64,000 bases of DNA from an uncultured Candidatus Saccharibacteria bacterium (GTDB lineage: Bacteria; Patescibacteriota; Minisyncoccia; UBA6257; 1-14-0-10-44-23). Shown here piece by piece: positions 8,722 through 61,200 of this stretch (position 1 is its first letter; each line of letters starts with the position of its first letter). Location of the stretch: contig CAZJVT010000002.1 of NCBI GenBank assembly GCA_964549935.1, positions 40,993-104,992 on the forward strand, given 5' to 3'. The position numbers and the translations under genes were made by a program. Below the pieces are notes generated by a model, which was given only the letters and a program-made list of their open reading frames with translations, was not told the DNA's origin and did no database searches.

Positions 8722-9141
8722 ATGGACTCAACCGCAAAAAGTGTAAAAATCGTCGCTCTCTACGTCTTCCCCGGCATCATTTTGGTTTTGATGACTATTC
8801 TTTTTATCGTCCCGATTCCTAAATCTACCGGCACGCTCGAAGGTCAAATGTCCGTCGGCCCTATCTGCCCCGTAGAACGCGTAGACACACCCTGCCCTGT
8901 GCCGCCGAGCGCCTACACCAGCCGCACCATCTTAATCTACCCAAAGGGTTCGGAAATTCTGACCGCCAGCGTCCACCCGGATGCGACCGGCGCCTACAAA
9001 ATCAAGCTCCCTGTTAATACCTACGTCGTAAAGCTCGGCCAAAATGGCATAGACAAGTCAGCAGACGTCCCACGCACAATTCACATCGATAAGGACGGCG
9101 TGACCCGGGTGGATATCGCCGTTGACACCGGAATCAGATAG
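8722..9141 (+). CDS. Hypothetical membrane-anchored protein.
   Basis: The ORF-track entry 8332-9141 overlaps tRNA-Leu. The real start is probably MDSTAKSVKIVALYVFPGIILVLMTILFIV at 8722, a TM helix followed by a soluble domain. Confidence 0.45.
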   Translation: MDSTAKSVKIVALYVFPGIILVLMTILFIVPIPKSTGTLEGQMSVGPICPVERVDTPCPVPPSAYTSRTILIYPKGSEILTASVHPDATGAYKIKLPVNTYVVKLGQNGIDKSADVPRTIHIDKDGVTRVDIAVDTGIR

Positions 9142-9187
9142 GTTCTGGATTTTTTCCGGCGAAAACGTTAGGATATAAGCTATCCCA

Positions 9188-9328
9188 GGAAGGGTGGCAG
9201 ACTTGCTCGCCTTTGGCGAGGTGGTCTCCCGCCTGAGGCGGGTAAAAACGCAACCGCACTTGTTATCGATTTGCTTGCGAGAGCTTGAGCAGCTGCAAAT
9301 CGAAATCCCGCAAAGCGGGAAAATGCGG
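9188..9328 (+). pseudogene. tRNA-Ser-like pseudo-copy (nt 1-45 of the adjacent tRNA-Ser) interrupted by four hairpin insertions.
   Basis: GGAAGGGTGGCAGA[19-nt hairpin]GTGGTCT[CCCGCCTGAGGCGGG]..ACGCA.CCGCACTTG[40-nt hairpin in the anticodon loop]AAAT[CCCGCAAAGCGGG]AAAATGCGG aligns segment by segment with tRNA-Ser(TGA) at 9400. Confidence 0.55.
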
Positions 9329-9399
9329 CGAACGATTGATAACACTGCGGAGGGTTGGCTAAGAAGTTGAAGGCGACTGTCTTGTTTCGTACATAGCGC

Positions 9400-9484
9400 G
9401 GAAGGGTGGCAGAGTGGTCTAACGCACCGCACTTGAAATGCGGCGTGCCGCAAGGCACCGTGAGTTCGAATCTCACCCCTTCCG
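9400..9484 (+). tRNA. tRNA-Ser (anticodon TGA), long variable arm.
   Basis: Acceptor GGAAGGG/CCCTTCC, anticodon loop CTTGAAA, variable arm CGTGCCGCAAGGCACCG, T-arm GTGAGTTCGAATCTCAC. A candidate promoter TTGAAG-N17-TACATA lies upstream. Confidence 0.85.
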
Positions 9485-9641
9485 CGCTATGCGGGAAAAA
9501 ATCCGTTTCGAATCCTTTTCCATCCGCAGCGTTCGTGAGTTCGAACCTCTCCATGGCAGCTTTAAAGCGAGTCTTTTAAGTGAAGCTGCCCCTGCCTACC
9601 GGCAGGCAGGCGTTTTGTCCTGCTGGCTAAAACCCCCTTCC
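9485..9641 (+). repeat. tRNA-Ser(TGA) 3'-flanking mini-element carrying the shared palindrome.
   Basis: Contains T-arm-like copies (GTGAGTTCGAACCTCTCC), the hairpin GGCAGCTT..AAGCTGCC, the palindrome CCTGCCTACCGGCAGGCAGG (9589-9608), and ends with a second copy of the tRNA 3' end, CCCCTTCCGC. Confidence 0.6.
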
Positions 9642-9679
9642 GCTAAGTCAAAATACTTCCGGCCTGCTATACTTTACCT

Positions 9680-10009
9680 ATGAAAAAGATCATACCGATC
9701 TTCGTTAATGCCTTGCCGGTACTCGTGATGATCGGACTGATTCCGCTCGTCGCAAACGACTATCTGCTCGCCGGCATCTACGTGCTTATTATTGCAATCG
9801 CGCTTTATGCGAAGCGGAAACGTAATGATGTAACCGTGTTAGTTTTTGGCTTTTTTATTATGATCGCCTCGGAGTACCTGTTTGTCAGCACGGGGGTTGA
9901 AACCTTCCAGCGTACTACCTTGCTTGGCCTAATGCCGCTATGGCTGCCGTTTTTGTGGTCCTACGGTTTTGTTTCCATTAAACGTTCTGTAGAAATCCTA
10001 AACACATGA
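9680..10009 (+). CDS. Small multi-pass membrane protein, hypothetical.
   Basis: 109-aa ORF with three predicted TM helices. Confidence 0.45.
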   Translation: MKKIIPIFVNALPVLVMIGLIPLVANDYLLAGIYVLIIAIALYAKRKRNDVTVLVFGFFIMIASEYLFVSTGVETFQRTTLLGLMPLWLPFLWSYGFVSIKRSVEILNT

Positions 10010-24392: not shown

Positions 24393-24534
24393 AGTTGAAC
24401 GAAGTGATACTGGCGCTACTAGGAACATCGGCGGAGCCGATTCCTATAGTAGCAAGATTACCCAGATTCGTCTCCTGCGAGGAGACGATAATCTTACTAC
24501 AGGCCCAGTTGAACGAAGTAATACTGGTGTTAGC
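24393..24534 (-). repeat. tRNA-Ala 5'-flanking mini-element.
   Basis: A ~41-nt direct repeat (TTACTACAGGCCCAGTTGAACGAAGTRATACTGG..) covers tRNA nt 1-13 plus upstream flank, at 24380-24420 and 24494-24534. It brackets 73 nt containing the hairpins AGGAA..TTCCT and CGTCTCCTcgcAGGAGACG. Confidence 0.65.
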
Positions 24535-26468: not shown

Positions 26469-26508
26469 TCTCCATTGGAAGCCTGCCTACCGCAGGCAGG
26501 CGTGGCCT
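26469..26508 (+). repeat. 5' partial tRNA-Ser(CGA) copy interrupted by palindromes.
   Basis: GGAAGC[CTGCCTACCGCAGGCAGG]CGTGGC[CTCGGCCACG]. The GGAAGC..GTGGC pieces match tRNA nt 1-11. Palindrome at 26475-26492. Confidence 0.65.
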
Positions 26509-26532
26509 CGGCCACGTATTCTTAAAACCAAT

Positions 26533-26619
26533 GGAAGCGTGGCTGAGTGGTCGAAGGCACCGCACTCGAAATGCGGCAGGCTCGAAAGGGCCTCGGAGGT
26601 TCAAATCCTCCCGCTTCCG
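26533..26619 (+). tRNA. tRNA-Ser (anticodon CGA).
   Basis: Acceptor GGAAGCG/CGCTTCC, anticodon loop CTCGAAA, long variable arm, T-arm GGAGGTTCAAATCCTCC. Confidence 0.85.
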
Positions 26620-48991: not shown

Positions 48992-49328
48992 ACTATTGAG
49001 TATGTATGCCGGAGGTAGTAAGTAGCAAGTAGTTAATGCAGAAACCTCCTTCTGCGCTAACTACTGACTGCTGTAACGAGTAACGCAGTATCGCGGCGGA
49101 TAGTGCCGCGATCACTTGCCTCTGTCTACCCTCTGCATACCTTAACTATTTCAATGATGCTGCTATTTTAGCAGAATATCCTGAAAAATGCAATAGAGCT
49201 GATTTGTGCATAAAATGATCGAGCCACTATCGCCTCGGCGAAACGAACCGGCCCGAGCGGGGAGGAATCCCCGCTCGGGCCGTTGCGAACTGATCCGAAA
49301 CGCTCCATGTTTTCCTAAGGACGGAGGC

Positions 49329-49634: not shown

Positions 49635-49714
49635 CGCTTCTCCTCCCTAAGTTAACACCGCCACACAGCGGTATTAAAGTTACCCTACCCCCGAGGTGCG
49701 AAACACGCAAGATA

Positions 49715-49746
49715 TCACTGATTACTACGGCCGTAGTAATCAGTGA
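49715..49746. promoter_or_regulatory. 32-bp perfect palindrome (candidate operator) in a divergent promoter region.
   Basis: TCACTGATTACTACGGCCGTAGTAATCAGTGA, between cassette gene E (minus strand) and the yvcK-like gene (plus strand). Confidence 0.55.
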
Positions 49747-49797
49747 TAATGAGCCAGTCGCTCGACAACCAGAGAAATCGAGTTTAGGATAGTTGCT

Positions 49798-60516: not shown

Positions 60517-61119
60517 CTACTCAGCGTAGGATTTCAAAAAGGCTTTGAGCTTCTTGAGCGCCTTGGTGCGTGAGCCGATTTTTATCTTTGTTTCGAGTCC
60601 AAGCTCGGCGGTCGTTTTTGTGTAGCCCTTAGGAATGAAAATGGTGTCGAATCCAAAGCCCTCCTTGCCTCGCACTTTTTTAGCGACACTGCCTTGGGTT
60701 ACCCCTTCGGCGTAGAAAAATGTTTTGCCATCATAAAATCCGTAGGCAACAATCCAGGTAACGCTACGGTCCGGCTTTGTCAGCATATCCGCCACGCCCT
60801 GCGAGCCGATACCGTCTTCAAACCAACGGATGAGTGGCCCCGGCAATCCGTTCAACTGTTTAATCGCAAAAGAAACGTCATCAACGATGACGGCTTGTCC
60901 GCCTCCCTGGCCGCCTTTGGCGCCGCCGGAGGCGGGCAAGCTGGCGGAGGTGTTTACCTTGGCGTAAGCCTGCTTCACTTTGTATTCAACGAGCGTACGC
61001 AAATCAACTCCCTGAATCTCATCGATAGGCACCTTGACCCGCTTAATAGCCGCACCAAGAATTCGCTGCGCTTCAATGGCTTTACCTTCATTGCCGGTTA
61101 CAAAAATGAGTTGTTCCAT
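60517..61119 (-). CDS. rdgB: Non-canonical purine NTP pyrophosphatase (RdgB/Ham1).
   Basis: Start MEQLIFVTGNEGK. GFGYDTIF-like motif GFGFDTIFIPKG. Confidence 0.85.
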   Translation of the reverse strand: MEQLIFVTGNEGKAIEAQRILGAAIKRVKVPIDEIQGVDLRTLVEYKVKQAYAKVNTSASLPASGGAKGGQGGGQAVIVDDVSFAIKQLNGLPGPLIRWFEDGIGSQGVADMLTKPDRSVTWIVAYGFYDGKTFFYAEGVTQGSVAKKVRGKEGFGFDTIFIPKGYTKTTAELGLETKIKIGSRTKALKKLKAFLKSYAE

Positions 61120-61200
61120 ATCTCTTGAAACAATACGAGCTAAAACACAAAAAGACAACCCCGCCCTAAGTGCGGGGTTGTCTTTTCTCCTTCCGGAGTC

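What the first reader, a model, noticed from the sequence alone, without database searches (positions are those of the whole stretch)
9188..9328. tRNA-Ser-like pseudo-copy carrying four hairpin insertions, one in the anticodon loop
Immediately upstream of the intact tRNA-Ser(TGA) is a colinear copy of its first ~45 nt, broken by four inserts. A 19-nt hairpin follows the D-stem 5' strand. CCCGCCTGAGGCGGG sits in the D-loop. A 40-nt hairpin sits inside the anticodon loop after CTTG. CCCGCAAAGCGGG follows the anticodon loop.

The copy is plausibly the old disrupted tRNA, with a fresh intact copy supplied by the adjacent element. The real tRNA's T-arm and acceptor 3' strand reappear only in the downstream element at 9485-9641, so the intact tRNA looks nested between the two halves of a degraded one.

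This resembles intron-containing or split tRNA arrangements known from archaea, but here with an intact gene in the middle.
Basis: seen in the sequence. Interest (0 to 1): 0.6.

Follow-up and report, generated by a model that had tools for sequence, protein, structure and literature searches.

The report
Nested, hairpin-riddled dead tRNA-Ser copies
The flagged stretch is the front half of a dead tRNA-Ser gene, one of two dead layers nested around the working copy and peppered with tiny repeated DNA hairpins; most tRNA genes in this small-genome bacterium and its relatives carry similar debris.

Summary
9188-9330 is colinear with positions 1-45 of the adjacent intact tRNA-Ser(UGA) at 9400-9485, broken by hairpins. 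The matching T arm and acceptor 3' strand lie at 9534-9643.

9349-9384 and 9507-9527 are the decayed halves of a different tRNA-Ser(UGA) allele ("F"), which is intact in a related genome. The locus is therefore old gene [ second gene [ working gene ] ].

This is not a split or intron-bearing tRNA, and there is no group I intron. It is one case of a clade-wide pattern in Harrisonbacteria-like Patescibacteria:
- 5' fragments of a tRNA lie upstream of it and 3' fragments downstream (13:1 and 13:1, p about 1e-5).
- The dead copies carry a roughly 19-nt mini-hairpin family (YTTR-CYCGCC-NNN-GGCGRG). The family recurs in dead copies of other tRNAs in other genomes, and in frame inside two protein genes.
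- Homing-type endonuclease genes (HNH, GIY-YIG, LAGLIDADG) sit next to tRNA genes in these genomes.

Best reading: serial overwriting of the tRNA gene by replacement copies after breaks in the gene, followed by hairpin colonisation of the wreckage. The anatomy is shown; the mechanism is inferred. I rate it a new variant of known kinds, of moderate to high interest.

The parts
9188..9201 (+). Outer (N-type) tRNA-Ser(UGA) remnant, tRNA positions 1-14: GGAAGGGTGGCAGA.
   Evidence: An exact 14-mer copy of the intact gene's start. It follows the upstream block shared with plain tRNA-Ser genes.
9202..9220 (+). Mini-hairpin 1, CTTG-CTCGCC-TTT-GGCGAG, inserted in the D loop.
   Evidence: 6-bp stem with a 3-nt loop. 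Copies differing at one base lie at the same site in L023 and in the dead tRNA-Leu copy of L064.
9221..9227 (+). Outer remnant, D-loop block GTGGTCT.
   Evidence: Colinear block in the alignment.
9228..9246 (+). Mini-hairpin 2, CCCGCC-TGA-GGCGGG, plus TAAA.
   Evidence: L023 has TCCGC-CAGAT-GCGGA plus TAAA at the same site. CCCGCCAGAGGCGGG-TAAA occurs in the L064 tRNA-Leu remnant.
9247..9262 (+). Outer remnant, D-stem 3' strand and anticodon stem 5' strand through loop position 35: AACGC(A)ACCGCACTTG.
   Evidence: It carries one extra A relative to the intact gene.
9263..9320 (+). Insertion at anticodon position 35/36: a roughly 43-nt hairpin (9263-9305) and the mini-hairpin TCCCGCAAAGCGGGA (9306-9320).
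   Evidence: Fold and hairpin census. Hairpins lie at the same 35/36 site in L023 and L064.
9321..9330 (+). Outer remnant, anticodon loop 3' part and stem 3' strand: AAATGCGGCG, positions 36-45.
   Evidence: Exact 10-mer.
9349..9384 (+). Middle (F-type) tRNA-Ser(UGA) remnant, 5' half, positions 1-35/36: GGAGGGTTGGCTAAGAAGTTGAAGGCGACTGTCTTG.
   Evidence: 30/36 identical to the intact F-type tRNA-Ser of L064. Score 42 against shuffles 13.2 +/- 2.2.
9392..9399 (+). Leader CATAGCGC, which pairs with the trailer GCGCTATG (9484-9491) and so extends the acceptor stem of the working gene.
   Evidence: Read from the sequence and seen in the fold. L023 has a different sequence with the same pairing, TTCAATCCTGA with TCAGGATTGAA.
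9400..9485 (+). Intact tRNA-Ser(UGA), the working inner (N-type) copy. No CCA is encoded.
   Evidence: ARAGORN. Rfam tRNA, 55.5 bits.
9507..9527 (+). Middle (F-type) remnant, T loop to 3' end: TTCGAATCCTTTTCCATCCGC.
   Evidence: 18/21 identical to the L064 F-type tRNA. Score 27 against shuffles 12.0 +/- 2.0.
9534..9550 (+). Outer remnant, T arm CGTGAGTTCGAAcCTCt, with 2 mismatches.
   Evidence: Exact 12-mer CGTGAGTTCGAA.
9551..9633 (+). Three hairpin modules between the T arm and the acceptor 3' strand: GGCAGCTT...AAGCTGCC (9555-9590), CCTGCCTACCGGCAGGCAGG (9591-9610) and TTTTGTCCTGCTGGCTAAAAC (9613-9633).
   Evidence: The first and third recur in the same order downstream of tRNA-Ser(CGA) at 26693-26749. 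The second occurs 4 times in the window, always beside a tRNA: 3 copies, the fourth seen.
9634..9643 (+). Outer remnant, acceptor 3' strand CCCCTTCCGC.
   Evidence: Exact 10-mer. It pairs with 9188-9194 in the minimum-free-energy fold.

Best explanation
**What it is.** 9188-9330 is not a gene product in its own right. It is the promoter-side half of the original tRNA-Ser(UGA) gene at this locus.

**Order of events implied by the anatomy.**
1. The original (N-type) gene was cut open in its variable arm, and a replacement tRNA-Ser(UGA) of another allele (F type) took that place.
2. The F copy was later cut open at anticodon position 35/36 and replaced by the present working N-type copy.

Each round left the 5' part of the old gene upstream and its 3' part downstream, which gives three nested layers.

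**The hairpins.** The dead layers were then colonised by 15-20-nt GC-rich mini-hairpins of a repeat family, YTTR-CYCGCC-NNN-GGCGRG. Most sit at positions that are loops of the tRNA.

**Inferred, not shown.**
- The whole nest is probably transcribed from upstream of the outer copy as a long, strongly folded leader and trailer, from which RNase P and 3' processing release the inner tRNA.
- The breaks that start each round are made by homing-type endonucleases that recognise conserved tRNA-gene loops. T4/T6 SegB does this at the T loop.
- The breaks are repaired from a homologous tRNA-Ser copy, resident or taken up from outside. Only repairs that restore a working tRNA-Ser survive, which would explain why the insert is always the same isoacceptor.
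For: **Anatomy.**
- Three layers are mapped.
- In each layer the 5' and 3' remnants are complementary and do not overlap. N-outer runs 1-45 and then from the T arm on. F-middle runs 1-35 and then 54-76. L064 N-outer runs 1-23 and then about 29-76.

**Related genomes.**
- L064 has the native-type gene, with pieces identical to the window's working gene except one variable-loop base. It is interrupted in the D loop by an intact F-type tRNA-Ser and by four mini-hairpins, two in the anticodon loop and two in the T loop.
- L023 has the same outer 5' copy: 59 of 64 positions identical, counted from alignment A1.
- L022, L025 and L061 have a plain gene.
- L065 has an F-like gene in the opposite orientation.
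- The locus therefore turns over.

**Generality.** In 28 tRNAs of 7 genomes, same-strand matches of 9 nt or more in the 400-nt flanks are as follows:
- Upstream: 13 to the 5' half against 1 to the 3' half.
- Downstream: 13 to the 3' half against 1 to the 5' half.
- Frequency: 0.64 matches per flank against 0.146 per control chunk. Fisher p = 9.8e-6.

**The hairpins are a family, not locus features**.
- They occur in dead tRNA-Ser and tRNA-Leu copies.
- They also occur in frame in ParB and in a Ham1-family (ITPase) gene.

**Endonucleases next to tRNAs.**
- HNH between the two tRNA-Thr genes of the window.
- GIY-YIG nested between a hairpin-riddled tRNA-Leu 5' copy and the intact tRNA-Leu in L064.
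- LAGLIDADG_3 directly after tRNA-Leu in L023.

**Breakpoints.** The 3' copies of Tyr, Leu, Thr and Ile begin inside the T loop. SegB cuts at a conserved T-loop motif and drives segmental amplification of tRNA genes (PMC2330249 and PMC13096335).

**Outer copy is the original gene.** The conserved upstream block precedes the outer copies and the plain genes, but not the inner copies.
Against: - No endonuclease gene lies inside or next to the window's tRNA-Ser nest. The endonuclease link is by association at other tRNAs and in other genomes.
- There is an age paradox. The outermost, supposedly oldest, layer is 71/73 identical to the working gene, while the middle layer is only 48/57 identical to its nearest intact relative. 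This needs gene conversion, selection on the outer pieces, or import of an already decayed F shell.
- Hairpins 1 and 2 are kept between genomes whose ParB proteins are only 67% identical. That is more conservation than junk should show, unless the hairpin family constrains itself.
- No mechanism is known for inserting 15-20-nt hairpins.
- No transcript data are available.
Confidence: 0.55

Rival explanations
1. The fragments are attachment-site scars. Integrative elements that recombine with tRNA genes through a tyrosine or serine integrase displaced parts of the gene. The elements were later deleted down to 100-200 nt, leaving the displaced fragments.
For: - Displaced 3' tRNA fragments downstream of an intact gene are the classic signature of such elements (established knowledge, the Islander model).
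- In L022 a large serine recombinase gene abuts tRNA-Ser(TGA).
- Direct repeats at tRNA-Ser(CGA), tRNA-Leu and L064 tRNA-Ile include trailer sequence, as att repeats would.
- L022 tRNA-Ile has two successive 3' copies, the farther one more decayed.
Against: - 5' fragments upstream are as common as 3' fragments downstream. Classical elements rarely give this.
- The remnants of each layer are complementary, as after an insertion that splits the gene. They are not overlapping duplications.
- The inserted units are complete tRNA genes of the same isoacceptor and only about 115-250 nt long.
- No integrase was seen beside the window's tRNAs among the ten flanking ORFs scanned.
- The fragments are broken up by hairpins.
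Confidence: 0.15
2. The nest is a functional structured leader and trailer RNA, or a DNA decoy. Either the tRNA-like shell with capped loops guides or regulates maturation of the inner tRNA, or it keeps endonuclease or integrase target sequences as harmless decoys with their loops plugged.
For: - The fold is very stable: z = -6.1 on the plus strand.
- The leader and trailer of the inner gene pair in both the window and L023, using unrelated sequences.
- Hairpins 1 and 2 and the extra TAAA are conserved between the window and L023.
- Many inserts sit at loop positions (D, anticodon, T), so the stems of the shell survive.
- The outer pieces are nearly unmutated, 71/73.
Against: - The shell is absent at the orthologous gene in L022, L025 and L061.
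- The middle layer is visibly decaying.
- The stability follows automatically from nesting complementary tRNA halves and adding hairpins. The minus strand folds even better, z = -7.1.
- The conserved hairpins are family members found in other tRNAs and in protein genes.
- The metagenome pattern scan found no further copies.
Confidence: 0.15
3. The outer copy is a split or multi-intron tRNA gene, and its hairpins are removed by an unknown splicing pathway to yield a second functional tRNA-Ser.
For: With the inserts removed by hand, ARAGORN still calls tRNA-Ser(tga) for both the window and the L064 outer copies. Patescibacteria do carry anticodon-loop introns at 35/36 (PMC13011429).
Against: - There is no bulge-helix-bulge geometry at the junctions (read from the sequence).
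- There is no group I core, and G rather than U ends the 5' exon.
- The window's outer copy lacks the class II variable arm and has two changes in its T arm, at least one breaking a stem pair.
- The L064 outer copy lacks 5 nt around the D-stem 3' strand.
- One of the 'introns' would be a whole tRNA gene.
Confidence: 0.03
4. The structure is an assembly artefact or a chimera of strain variants.
For: Logan contigs of the same organism break inside the nest, at window 9449 and 9630.
Against: - The 3' half is reproduced base for base in an independent assembly.
- Comparable nests occur in independent ENA and JGI assemblies of other genomes.
- The repeated blocks are shorter than assembler k-mers.
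Confidence: 0.02

Closest known systems
Phage T4/T6 SegB, a free-standing GIY-YIG homing endonuclease located in tRNA gene clusters (PMC2330249, PMC13096335)
   Same: - An endonuclease gene sits beside tRNA genes.
- Recognition centres on the conserved T-loop motif.
- Breaks are repaired by recombination, giving co-conversion and segmental duplication of units that contain a full tRNA gene.
- Here the 3' copies start in the T loop, and a GIY-YIG gene is nested between a dead and a live tRNA-Leu in L064.
   Different: - This is a cellular Patescibacteria genome, not a phage.
- The products are nested same-isoacceptor replacements and polar fragments, not tandem ladders.
- No endonuclease gene lies at the tRNA-Ser nest itself.
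- Cleavage has not been tested.
- Mini-hairpins are not part of the SegB story.
Displaced tRNA-gene fragments left by integrative elements (the Islander-type att scar)
   Same: An intact tRNA gene is accompanied by a direct repeat of its 3' part a short distance downstream. In some loci the trailer is duplicated as well.
   Different: - 5' fragments upstream are equally common.
- No integrase lies between the repeats.
- The fragments are interrupted by hairpins.
- The inserted unit is a whole tRNA gene.
Very small palindromic repeats: REP/REPIN elements, Rickettsia palindromic elements, cyanobacterial small dispersed repeats, yeast mitochondrial GC clusters (from my own knowledge; REPINs in PMC3116915)
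   Same: - A short GC-rich hairpin family is dispersed in the genome.
- Copies sometimes occur in tandem.
- They can sit in frame inside protein genes, as Rickettsia palindromic elements do.
- They have a conserved short 5' flank (CTTG or TTTA), reminiscent of the REP tetranucleotide.
   Different: - They are only about 15-19 nt long.
- They are strongly concentrated in dead tRNA copies, often at loop positions.
- No RAYT-like transposase has been identified.
- Copy number in the data held is low: about 16 in 180 kb.
Archaeal intron-containing, split and permuted tRNA genes
   Same: tRNA sequence is interrupted at several positions, including non-canonical ones, and the halves can pair through the acceptor stem.
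   Different: - There is no bulge-helix-bulge.
- This is a bacterium.
- A complete gene is present inside.
- The interrupted copy is defective.
Group I introns at anticodon position 35/36 in Patescibacteria tRNAs (PMC13011429)
   Same: The same phylum, and the same unusual 35/36 break position in the anticodon loop. That break is seen here in three genomes and in two tRNA-Ser alleles.
   Different: - The insert is 58 nt of simple hairpins.
- There is no RF00028 match.
- The 5' exon ends in G, not U.
- The affected tRNA is Ser, not the tRNAs reported with 35/36 introns (Asn, Asp, Tyr).

Membership tests
Archaeal-type BHB intron or split tRNA | A bulge-helix-bulge (3-4-3) at each exon-intron junction. 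| tested here: not met
   Read from the sequence. Each insert is a closed hairpin whose two junctions lie opposite each other at the hairpin base, with no 4-bp helix between staggered bulges.
Archaeal-type BHB intron or split tRNA | Removing the inserts gives a complete, foldable tRNA that the cell needs. | tested here: not met
   The joined outer pieces lack the class II variable arm and have two changes in the T arm. An intact gene is present at 9400-9485.
Archaeal-type BHB intron or split tRNA | A tRNA splicing endonuclease and a ligase are encoded in the genome. | not testable with these tools
   Only a 64-kb window of the genome is held.
Group I intron in a tRNA anticodon loop | A group I ribozyme core detectable by a covariance model. 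| tested here: not met
   No Intron_gpI match at E <= 1 in 6000-10000. The insert is only 58 nt.
Group I intron in a tRNA anticodon loop | [quoted passage not shown] | tested here: not met
   The 5' side ends in CTTG, so the base is G35. The requirement is stated in PMC13011429.
Integrative-element att scar at a tRNA gene | A direct repeat of the tRNA 3' part downstream of the intact gene. | tested here: met
   Found at 9534-9550 and 9634-9643, and also at Tyr, Leu, Thr, Ile and Ser(CGA).
Integrative-element att scar at a tRNA gene | An integrase gene or element body lies between the repeats. | tested here: not met
   No Pfam domain in any ORF over 9058-9683. Spacing is 50-200 nt. Only L022 has a recombinase beside tRNA-Ser.
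Homing-endonuclease-driven tRNA segmental duplication (SegB-like) | A homing endonuclease gene adjacent to the duplicated tRNA. | tested here: inconclusive
   Not at the window's tRNA-Ser nest. Present at other tRNAs: HNH at window 33708-34124, GIY-YIG at L064 9529-9771 and LAGLIDADG_3 at L023 9100-9861.
Homing-endonuclease-driven tRNA segmental duplication (SegB-like) | Breakpoints lie at conserved tRNA loops, the T loop for SegB. | tested here: met
   The 3' copies of Tyr, Leu, Thr(GGT) and L064 Ile start inside the T loop. The Ser layers break at 35/36, the D loop and the variable arm.
Homing-endonuclease-driven tRNA segmental duplication (SegB-like) | The endonuclease cleaves the tRNA gene. 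| not testable with these tools
   This needs purified protein and cleavage assays.
REP/REPIN-like small palindromic repeats | A dispersed family of near-identical short hairpins. | tested here: met
   About 16 copies of (C/T)CGCC-N3-5-GGCG(G/A) hairpins with a CTTG, TTTA or TAAA flank, across 5 genomes. CCTGCCTACCGGCAGGCAGG occurs 4 times in the window: 3 copies, the fourth seen.
REP/REPIN-like small palindromic repeats | A cognate RAYT/HUH transposase in the genome. | not tested
   Only selected ORFs of the window were scanned. The whole genome is not held.

The most novel reading that the evidence does not exclude
tRNA genes of this Patescibacteria clade are the arena of a previously undescribed conflict.
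- Endonucleases that recognise the conserved loops of tRNA genes repeatedly break them.
- The genes are serially overwritten by same-isoacceptor replacement cassettes, giving nested genes.
- A new class of roughly 19-nt mobile mini-hairpins is inserted specifically into the D, anticodon and T loops of the superseded copies. A roughly 120-nt three-way-junction element inserts beside tRNA genes, bounded by T-loop-to-3'-end tRNA sequence.
- The plugged copies no longer carry the endonuclease recognition sites, so the shells persist as immune, transcribed scaffolds or decoys around the working gene.
Probability: 0.2. Interest if true: 0.8.

Novelty: new variant of a known kind. Interest (0 to 1): 0.6.

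Why it matters
- **tRNA genes under attack in tiny genomes.** If the reading is right, essential single-copy tRNA genes in very small symbiont genomes are hot spots of breakage and replacement. They can be overwritten by foreign alleles of the same isoacceptor without loss of function.
- **A new repeat family.** It is a family of extremely small hairpin repeats with a striking preference for dead tRNA copies, which also lengthens proteins in frame.
- **Practical consequences.** Such nests break assemblies and confuse tRNA finders and island finders. They also leave a readable record of successive tRNA-gene replacements that could be used to date events in Patescibacteria.
- **A bridge to known biology.** It links recent phage work on SegB and tRNA amplification with cellular genomes.

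Tried and rejected
- **Genome-collection scan with the neighbouring LysE protein.** It returned only distant Proteobacteria and Clostridium loci. The single scan was wasted.
- **Metagenome scan with GGAAGGGTGGCAGA-N10-40-GTGGTCT.** The 32 hits were all ordinary tRNA-Ser genes or coding sequence, so no further copy of the outer element was found.
- **Viral-contig scans.** The queries were the T-loop-element motif and a Ser-element pattern. Only chance hits in coding sequence came back, so there is no sign of a phage origin.
- **Rfam at permissive thresholds.** This covered the nest, the tRNA-Tyr element and the 6232-7210 gap. No family other than tRNA was found.
- **Group I intron remnant at 35/36.** Rejected on size, the lack of a core and G35.
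- **Coding potential of ORFs overlapping the nest.** No significant Pfam match.
- **Hairpin 1 as a locus-specific conserved structure under selection.** Weakened when a copy differing at one base turned up in a dead tRNA-Leu copy of another genome.
- **Independent assembly of the upstream half.** Look-ups with the upstream protein and with ParB found nothing on record, or only a 1.2-kb contig.
Full report
**1. The observation**

ARAGORN and Rfam find an intact tRNA-Ser(UGA) at 9400-9485. Upstream, four blocks of that tRNA occur in order:
- GGAAGGGTGGCAGA, 9188-9201.
- GTGGTCT, 9221-9227.
- AACGC(A)ACCGCACTTG, 9247-9262.
- AAATGCGGCG, 9321-9330.

A gapped local alignment scores 72.6, against 37.2 +/- 4.5 for shuffles.
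- 9202-9220.
- 9228-9242, plus TAAA.
- A roughly 43-nt hairpin at 9263-9305.
- TCCCGCAAAGCGGGA at 9306-9320.

The last two both lie within one insertion between anticodon-loop positions 35 and 36.

Downstream, the T arm (9534-9550, two mismatches) and the acceptor 3' strand (9634-9643) reappear. They are separated by three more hairpin modules. The 471-nt region folds with the outer GGAAGGG/CCCUUCC stem closed, at z = -6.1. The minus strand folds at z = -7.1, so stability alone does not identify an RNA. No Rfam family other than tRNA matches, and no ORF over the region has a significant Pfam match.

**2. A third layer**

I aligned the locus with the orthologous loci of two relatives. The "spacer" at 9349-9384 turned out to be the 5' half, positions 1-35, of a different tRNA-Ser(UGA) allele. 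That allele, which I call F, is intact in locus L064. The match is 30/36, score 42 against 13.2 +/- 2.2. The stretch 9507-9527 is the same allele's T loop to 3' end: 18/21, score 27 against 12.0 +/- 2.0.

The locus is therefore N-outer [ F-middle [ N-inner, intact ] ]. N-outer is broken at its variable arm. F-middle is broken at 35/36.

The leader and trailer of the inner gene pair, CATAGCGC with GCGCTATG. The flanks of the F layer pair as well, CTGCGGA with TCCGCAG.

**3. Organism and relatives**

ParB homologues place the window among Harrisonbacteria-like Patescibacteria. I fetched syntenic loci through ParB homologues. The order ParB, tRNA-Leu, tRNA-Ser(TGA) on one side and TopA, DprA, tRNA-Ile on the other is kept.

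| Locus | State of tRNA-Ser(TGA) |
|---|---|
| L023 | Same outer 5' copy upstream of an identical intact gene. It has hairpin 1 (one base differs), hairpin 2 (TCCGC-CAGAT-GCGGA in place of CCCGCC-TGA-GGCGGG), the same extra TAAA and a hairpin at 35/36. 59 of 64 positions are identical, counted from alignment A1. There is no downstream half. |
| L022, L025, L061 | Plain gene. |
| L065 | F-like gene in the opposite orientation. |
| L064 | Native-type gene, with pieces identical to the window's working gene except one variable-loop base. It is interrupted by an intact F-type tRNA-Ser with pairing flanks in the D loop, by two mini-hairpins at 35/36 and by two in the T loop. |

ARAGORN calls tRNA-Ser(tga) on the hand-joined outer pieces of both the window and L064. 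This locus is evidently rebuilt repeatedly.

**4. Generality**

In the window, tRNA-Ile, Leu, Ser(CGA), Ala, Thr(GGT) and Tyr also carry partial copies of themselves nearby. The relatives do too.

Across 28 tRNAs in 7 genomes, same-strand matches of at least 9 nt in the 400-nt flanks are strongly polar:
- Upstream: 13 to the 5' half, 1 to the 3' half.
- Downstream: 13 to the 3' half, 1 to the 5' half.
- Frequency: 0.64 matches per flank, against 0.146 per control chunk. Fisher p = 9.8e-6.

A conserved upstream block (CTGGATT ... TAnnAT) precedes plain tRNA-Ser genes and the outer copies, but not the inner copies. The outer copies are therefore the original genes at their original sites.

**5. 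The hairpins are a repeat family**

The dead tRNA-Leu copy in L064 reads as follows:

GCCGCG | CCCGCCAGAGGCGGG-TAAA | GTGGCGGAA | CTTGCTCGCCTCTGGCGAG | TGGCAGA | TTTA-CCCGCCTCTGGCGGG | ...

These are the same two hairpin types as hairpins 1 and 2 of the finding, but in a different tRNA and a different genome.

A census finds about 16 such hairpins in about 180 kb from 5 genomes, and 12 of them lie in dead tRNA copies. Others lie in frame in protein genes:
- ParB, window 7537-7551, encoding DLPASGG. Another ParB, P0002, has DLPASGG at a non-homologous position.
- A tandem set in a Ham1-family (ITPase) gene, about 60905-60945. It adds roughly 15-18 residues relative to solved homologues.

A second hairpin, CCTGCCTACCGGCAGGCAGG, occurs four times in the window, each time beside a tRNA: three copies, and a fourth, with a one-base deletion, upstream of tRNA-Ser(CGA). 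Perfect hairpins with stems of 6 bp or more number 101, against about 40 in shuffles, and they cluster near tRNAs.

**6. Endonucleases**

- An HNH endonuclease ORF lies between the two tRNA-Thr genes of the window.
- In L064 a GIY-YIG ORF sits exactly between the hairpin-riddled tRNA-Leu 5' copy and the intact tRNA-Leu. Its start codon is at the break in the anticodon loop, and its last codons lie in the duplicated leader.
- In L023 a LAGLIDADG_3 ORF follows tRNA-Leu directly.

The published parallel is phage T4/T6 SegB. It is a GIY-YIG enzyme in tRNA clusters that recognises the conserved T-loop motif. It promotes inheritance of its tRNA region and recombination-dependent segmental amplification of full tRNA genes (PMC2330249 and PMC13096335).

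Here the 3' copies of Tyr, Leu, Thr and Ile start within the T loop.

**7. Interpretation**

Shown:
- The anatomy of three nested layers.
- The polarity rule.
- The turnover among relatives.
- The family nature of the hairpins.
- The co-location of endonuclease genes with tRNAs.

Inferred:
- Breaks in tRNA genes are repaired from another tRNA-Ser copy, and only repairs that deliver a working gene survive.
- Dead layers are then colonised by mini-hairpins.
- The nest is co-transcribed and the inner tRNA is cut out.

Unexplained:
- The outermost layer is less decayed (71/73) than the middle one (48/57).
- Hairpins 1 and 2 are kept between genomes with 67% ParB identity.
- It is not known how 15-20-nt hairpins are inserted, or why so many sit at loop positions.

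These points keep alive a functional or decoy reading, to which I give about 0.15. Integrase scars get about 0.15 as well. A spliced multi-intron tRNA and an assembly artefact are both unlikely.

**8. Comparison and novelty**

The locus fails the tests for an archaeal BHB-intron or split tRNA and for a group I intron. It resembles SegB-type duplication, att scars and REP-like repeats, each only in part.

Searches of the paper library found nothing describing the following in Patescibacteria:
- Nested same-isoacceptor tRNA genes.
- Loop-targeted mini-hairpins.
- The polar tRNA debris.

I rate it a new variant of known kinds, with interest 0.6.

Noticed in passing
window 8440-8560 and 34911-35080; L064 16476-16595: A conserved element of about 120-170 nt lies downstream of tRNA-Leu and tRNA-Tyr in the window and of tRNA-Ile in L064.
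- Its core is TCGAATCGCCGGA, hairpin A, GAGGCGGTGCCCAGAC, hairpin B, GAGTCGAGGGCGA.
- Its two ends are an inverted copy and a direct copy of the neighbouring tRNA's T-loop-to-3'-end sequence.
- The hairpin stems differ in sequence between copies but still pair.
- All three copies fold into the same three-way junction, z = -7 to -10.
- There is no Rfam match, and it is absent at the orthologous tRNAs of other relatives.
   Followed up: partly
window 7537-7551 (ParB) and about 60905-60945 (Ham1-family ITPase ORF 60517-61158, minus strand): The same mini-hairpin family (CTTG-CCCGCC-NNN-GGCGGG) sits in frame inside protein-coding genes, where it encodes (D/S)LPASGG. The Ham1-family protein carries a tandem set that adds about 15-18 residues relative to solved homologues. 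A ParB orthologue, P0002, has DLPASGG at a different position.
   Followed up: partly
window 26474-26760: tRNA-Ser(CGA) at 26533-26620 is nested in the same way.
- The upstream copy reads ccattGGAAGC | CTGCCTACCGCAGGCAGG | cGTGGC.
- The downstream part has a degenerate T arm, the hairpins GGCAGCTT...AAGCTGCC and TTTTGCCCTGGTGGTCAAAAC, and then its own acceptor 3' strand.
- A 25-nt direct repeat includes the trailer.
- The two hairpin modules are homologous to those at 9555-9633.
   Followed up: partly
window 1877-2112, minus strand: tRNA-Ile has an upstream copy, GCGCGTGTA | CCTGCCTGCCGGCAGGCAGG | GCTCA ... TGATAATGAAA, and a downstream copy, CCTTCtCACGCGCACCA.
- The downstream copies of tRNA-Ile (window and L022) and of tRNA-Tyr (35061-35082) end in an encoded CCA, while the working genes do not.
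- This suggests either that the older genes encoded CCA, or that the copies derive from mature tRNA.
   Followed up: no
window 24393-24530, minus strand: A 34-nt direct repeat, made of 21 nt of leader plus the first 13 nt of tRNA-Ala, lies 114 nt upstream of tRNA-Ala. It encloses about 80 nt of hairpins.
   Followed up: no
window 33708-34124, minus strand: A free-standing HNH endonuclease ORF of 138 aa lies between tRNA-Thr(TGT) and tRNA-Thr(GGT). tRNA-Thr(GGT) has a downstream T-arm copy interrupted in the T loop by about 85 nt (33454-33558).
   Followed up: partly
L064 9290-9900; L023 9100-9861; L022 6564-8168: In the relatives, endonuclease or recombinase genes abut tRNA genes.
- L064: a GIY-YIG gene nested between dead and live tRNA-Leu copies.
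- L023: a LAGLIDADG_3 gene directly after tRNA-Leu.
- L022: a large serine recombinase gene overlapping the end of tRNA-Ser(TGA).
   Followed up: partly
window 6232-7210: A stretch of about 980 nt between topA and parB has no convincing ORF, no Pfam hit for its two longest ORFs, no Rfam match, and no nucleotide similarity to the same interval in six relatives.
   Followed up: partly
L063 17765 and L064 9430: The trailer motif ACTTCGACAGGC..CAGTGCAAG follows different tRNAs in two genomes, Val in L063 and Leu in L064. It may be another shared tRNA-flanking module.
   Followed up: no
window 49249-49282 and 49713-49748: Two unusually long perfect hairpins, with 15- and 16-bp stems, lie far from any tRNA.
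   Followed up: no
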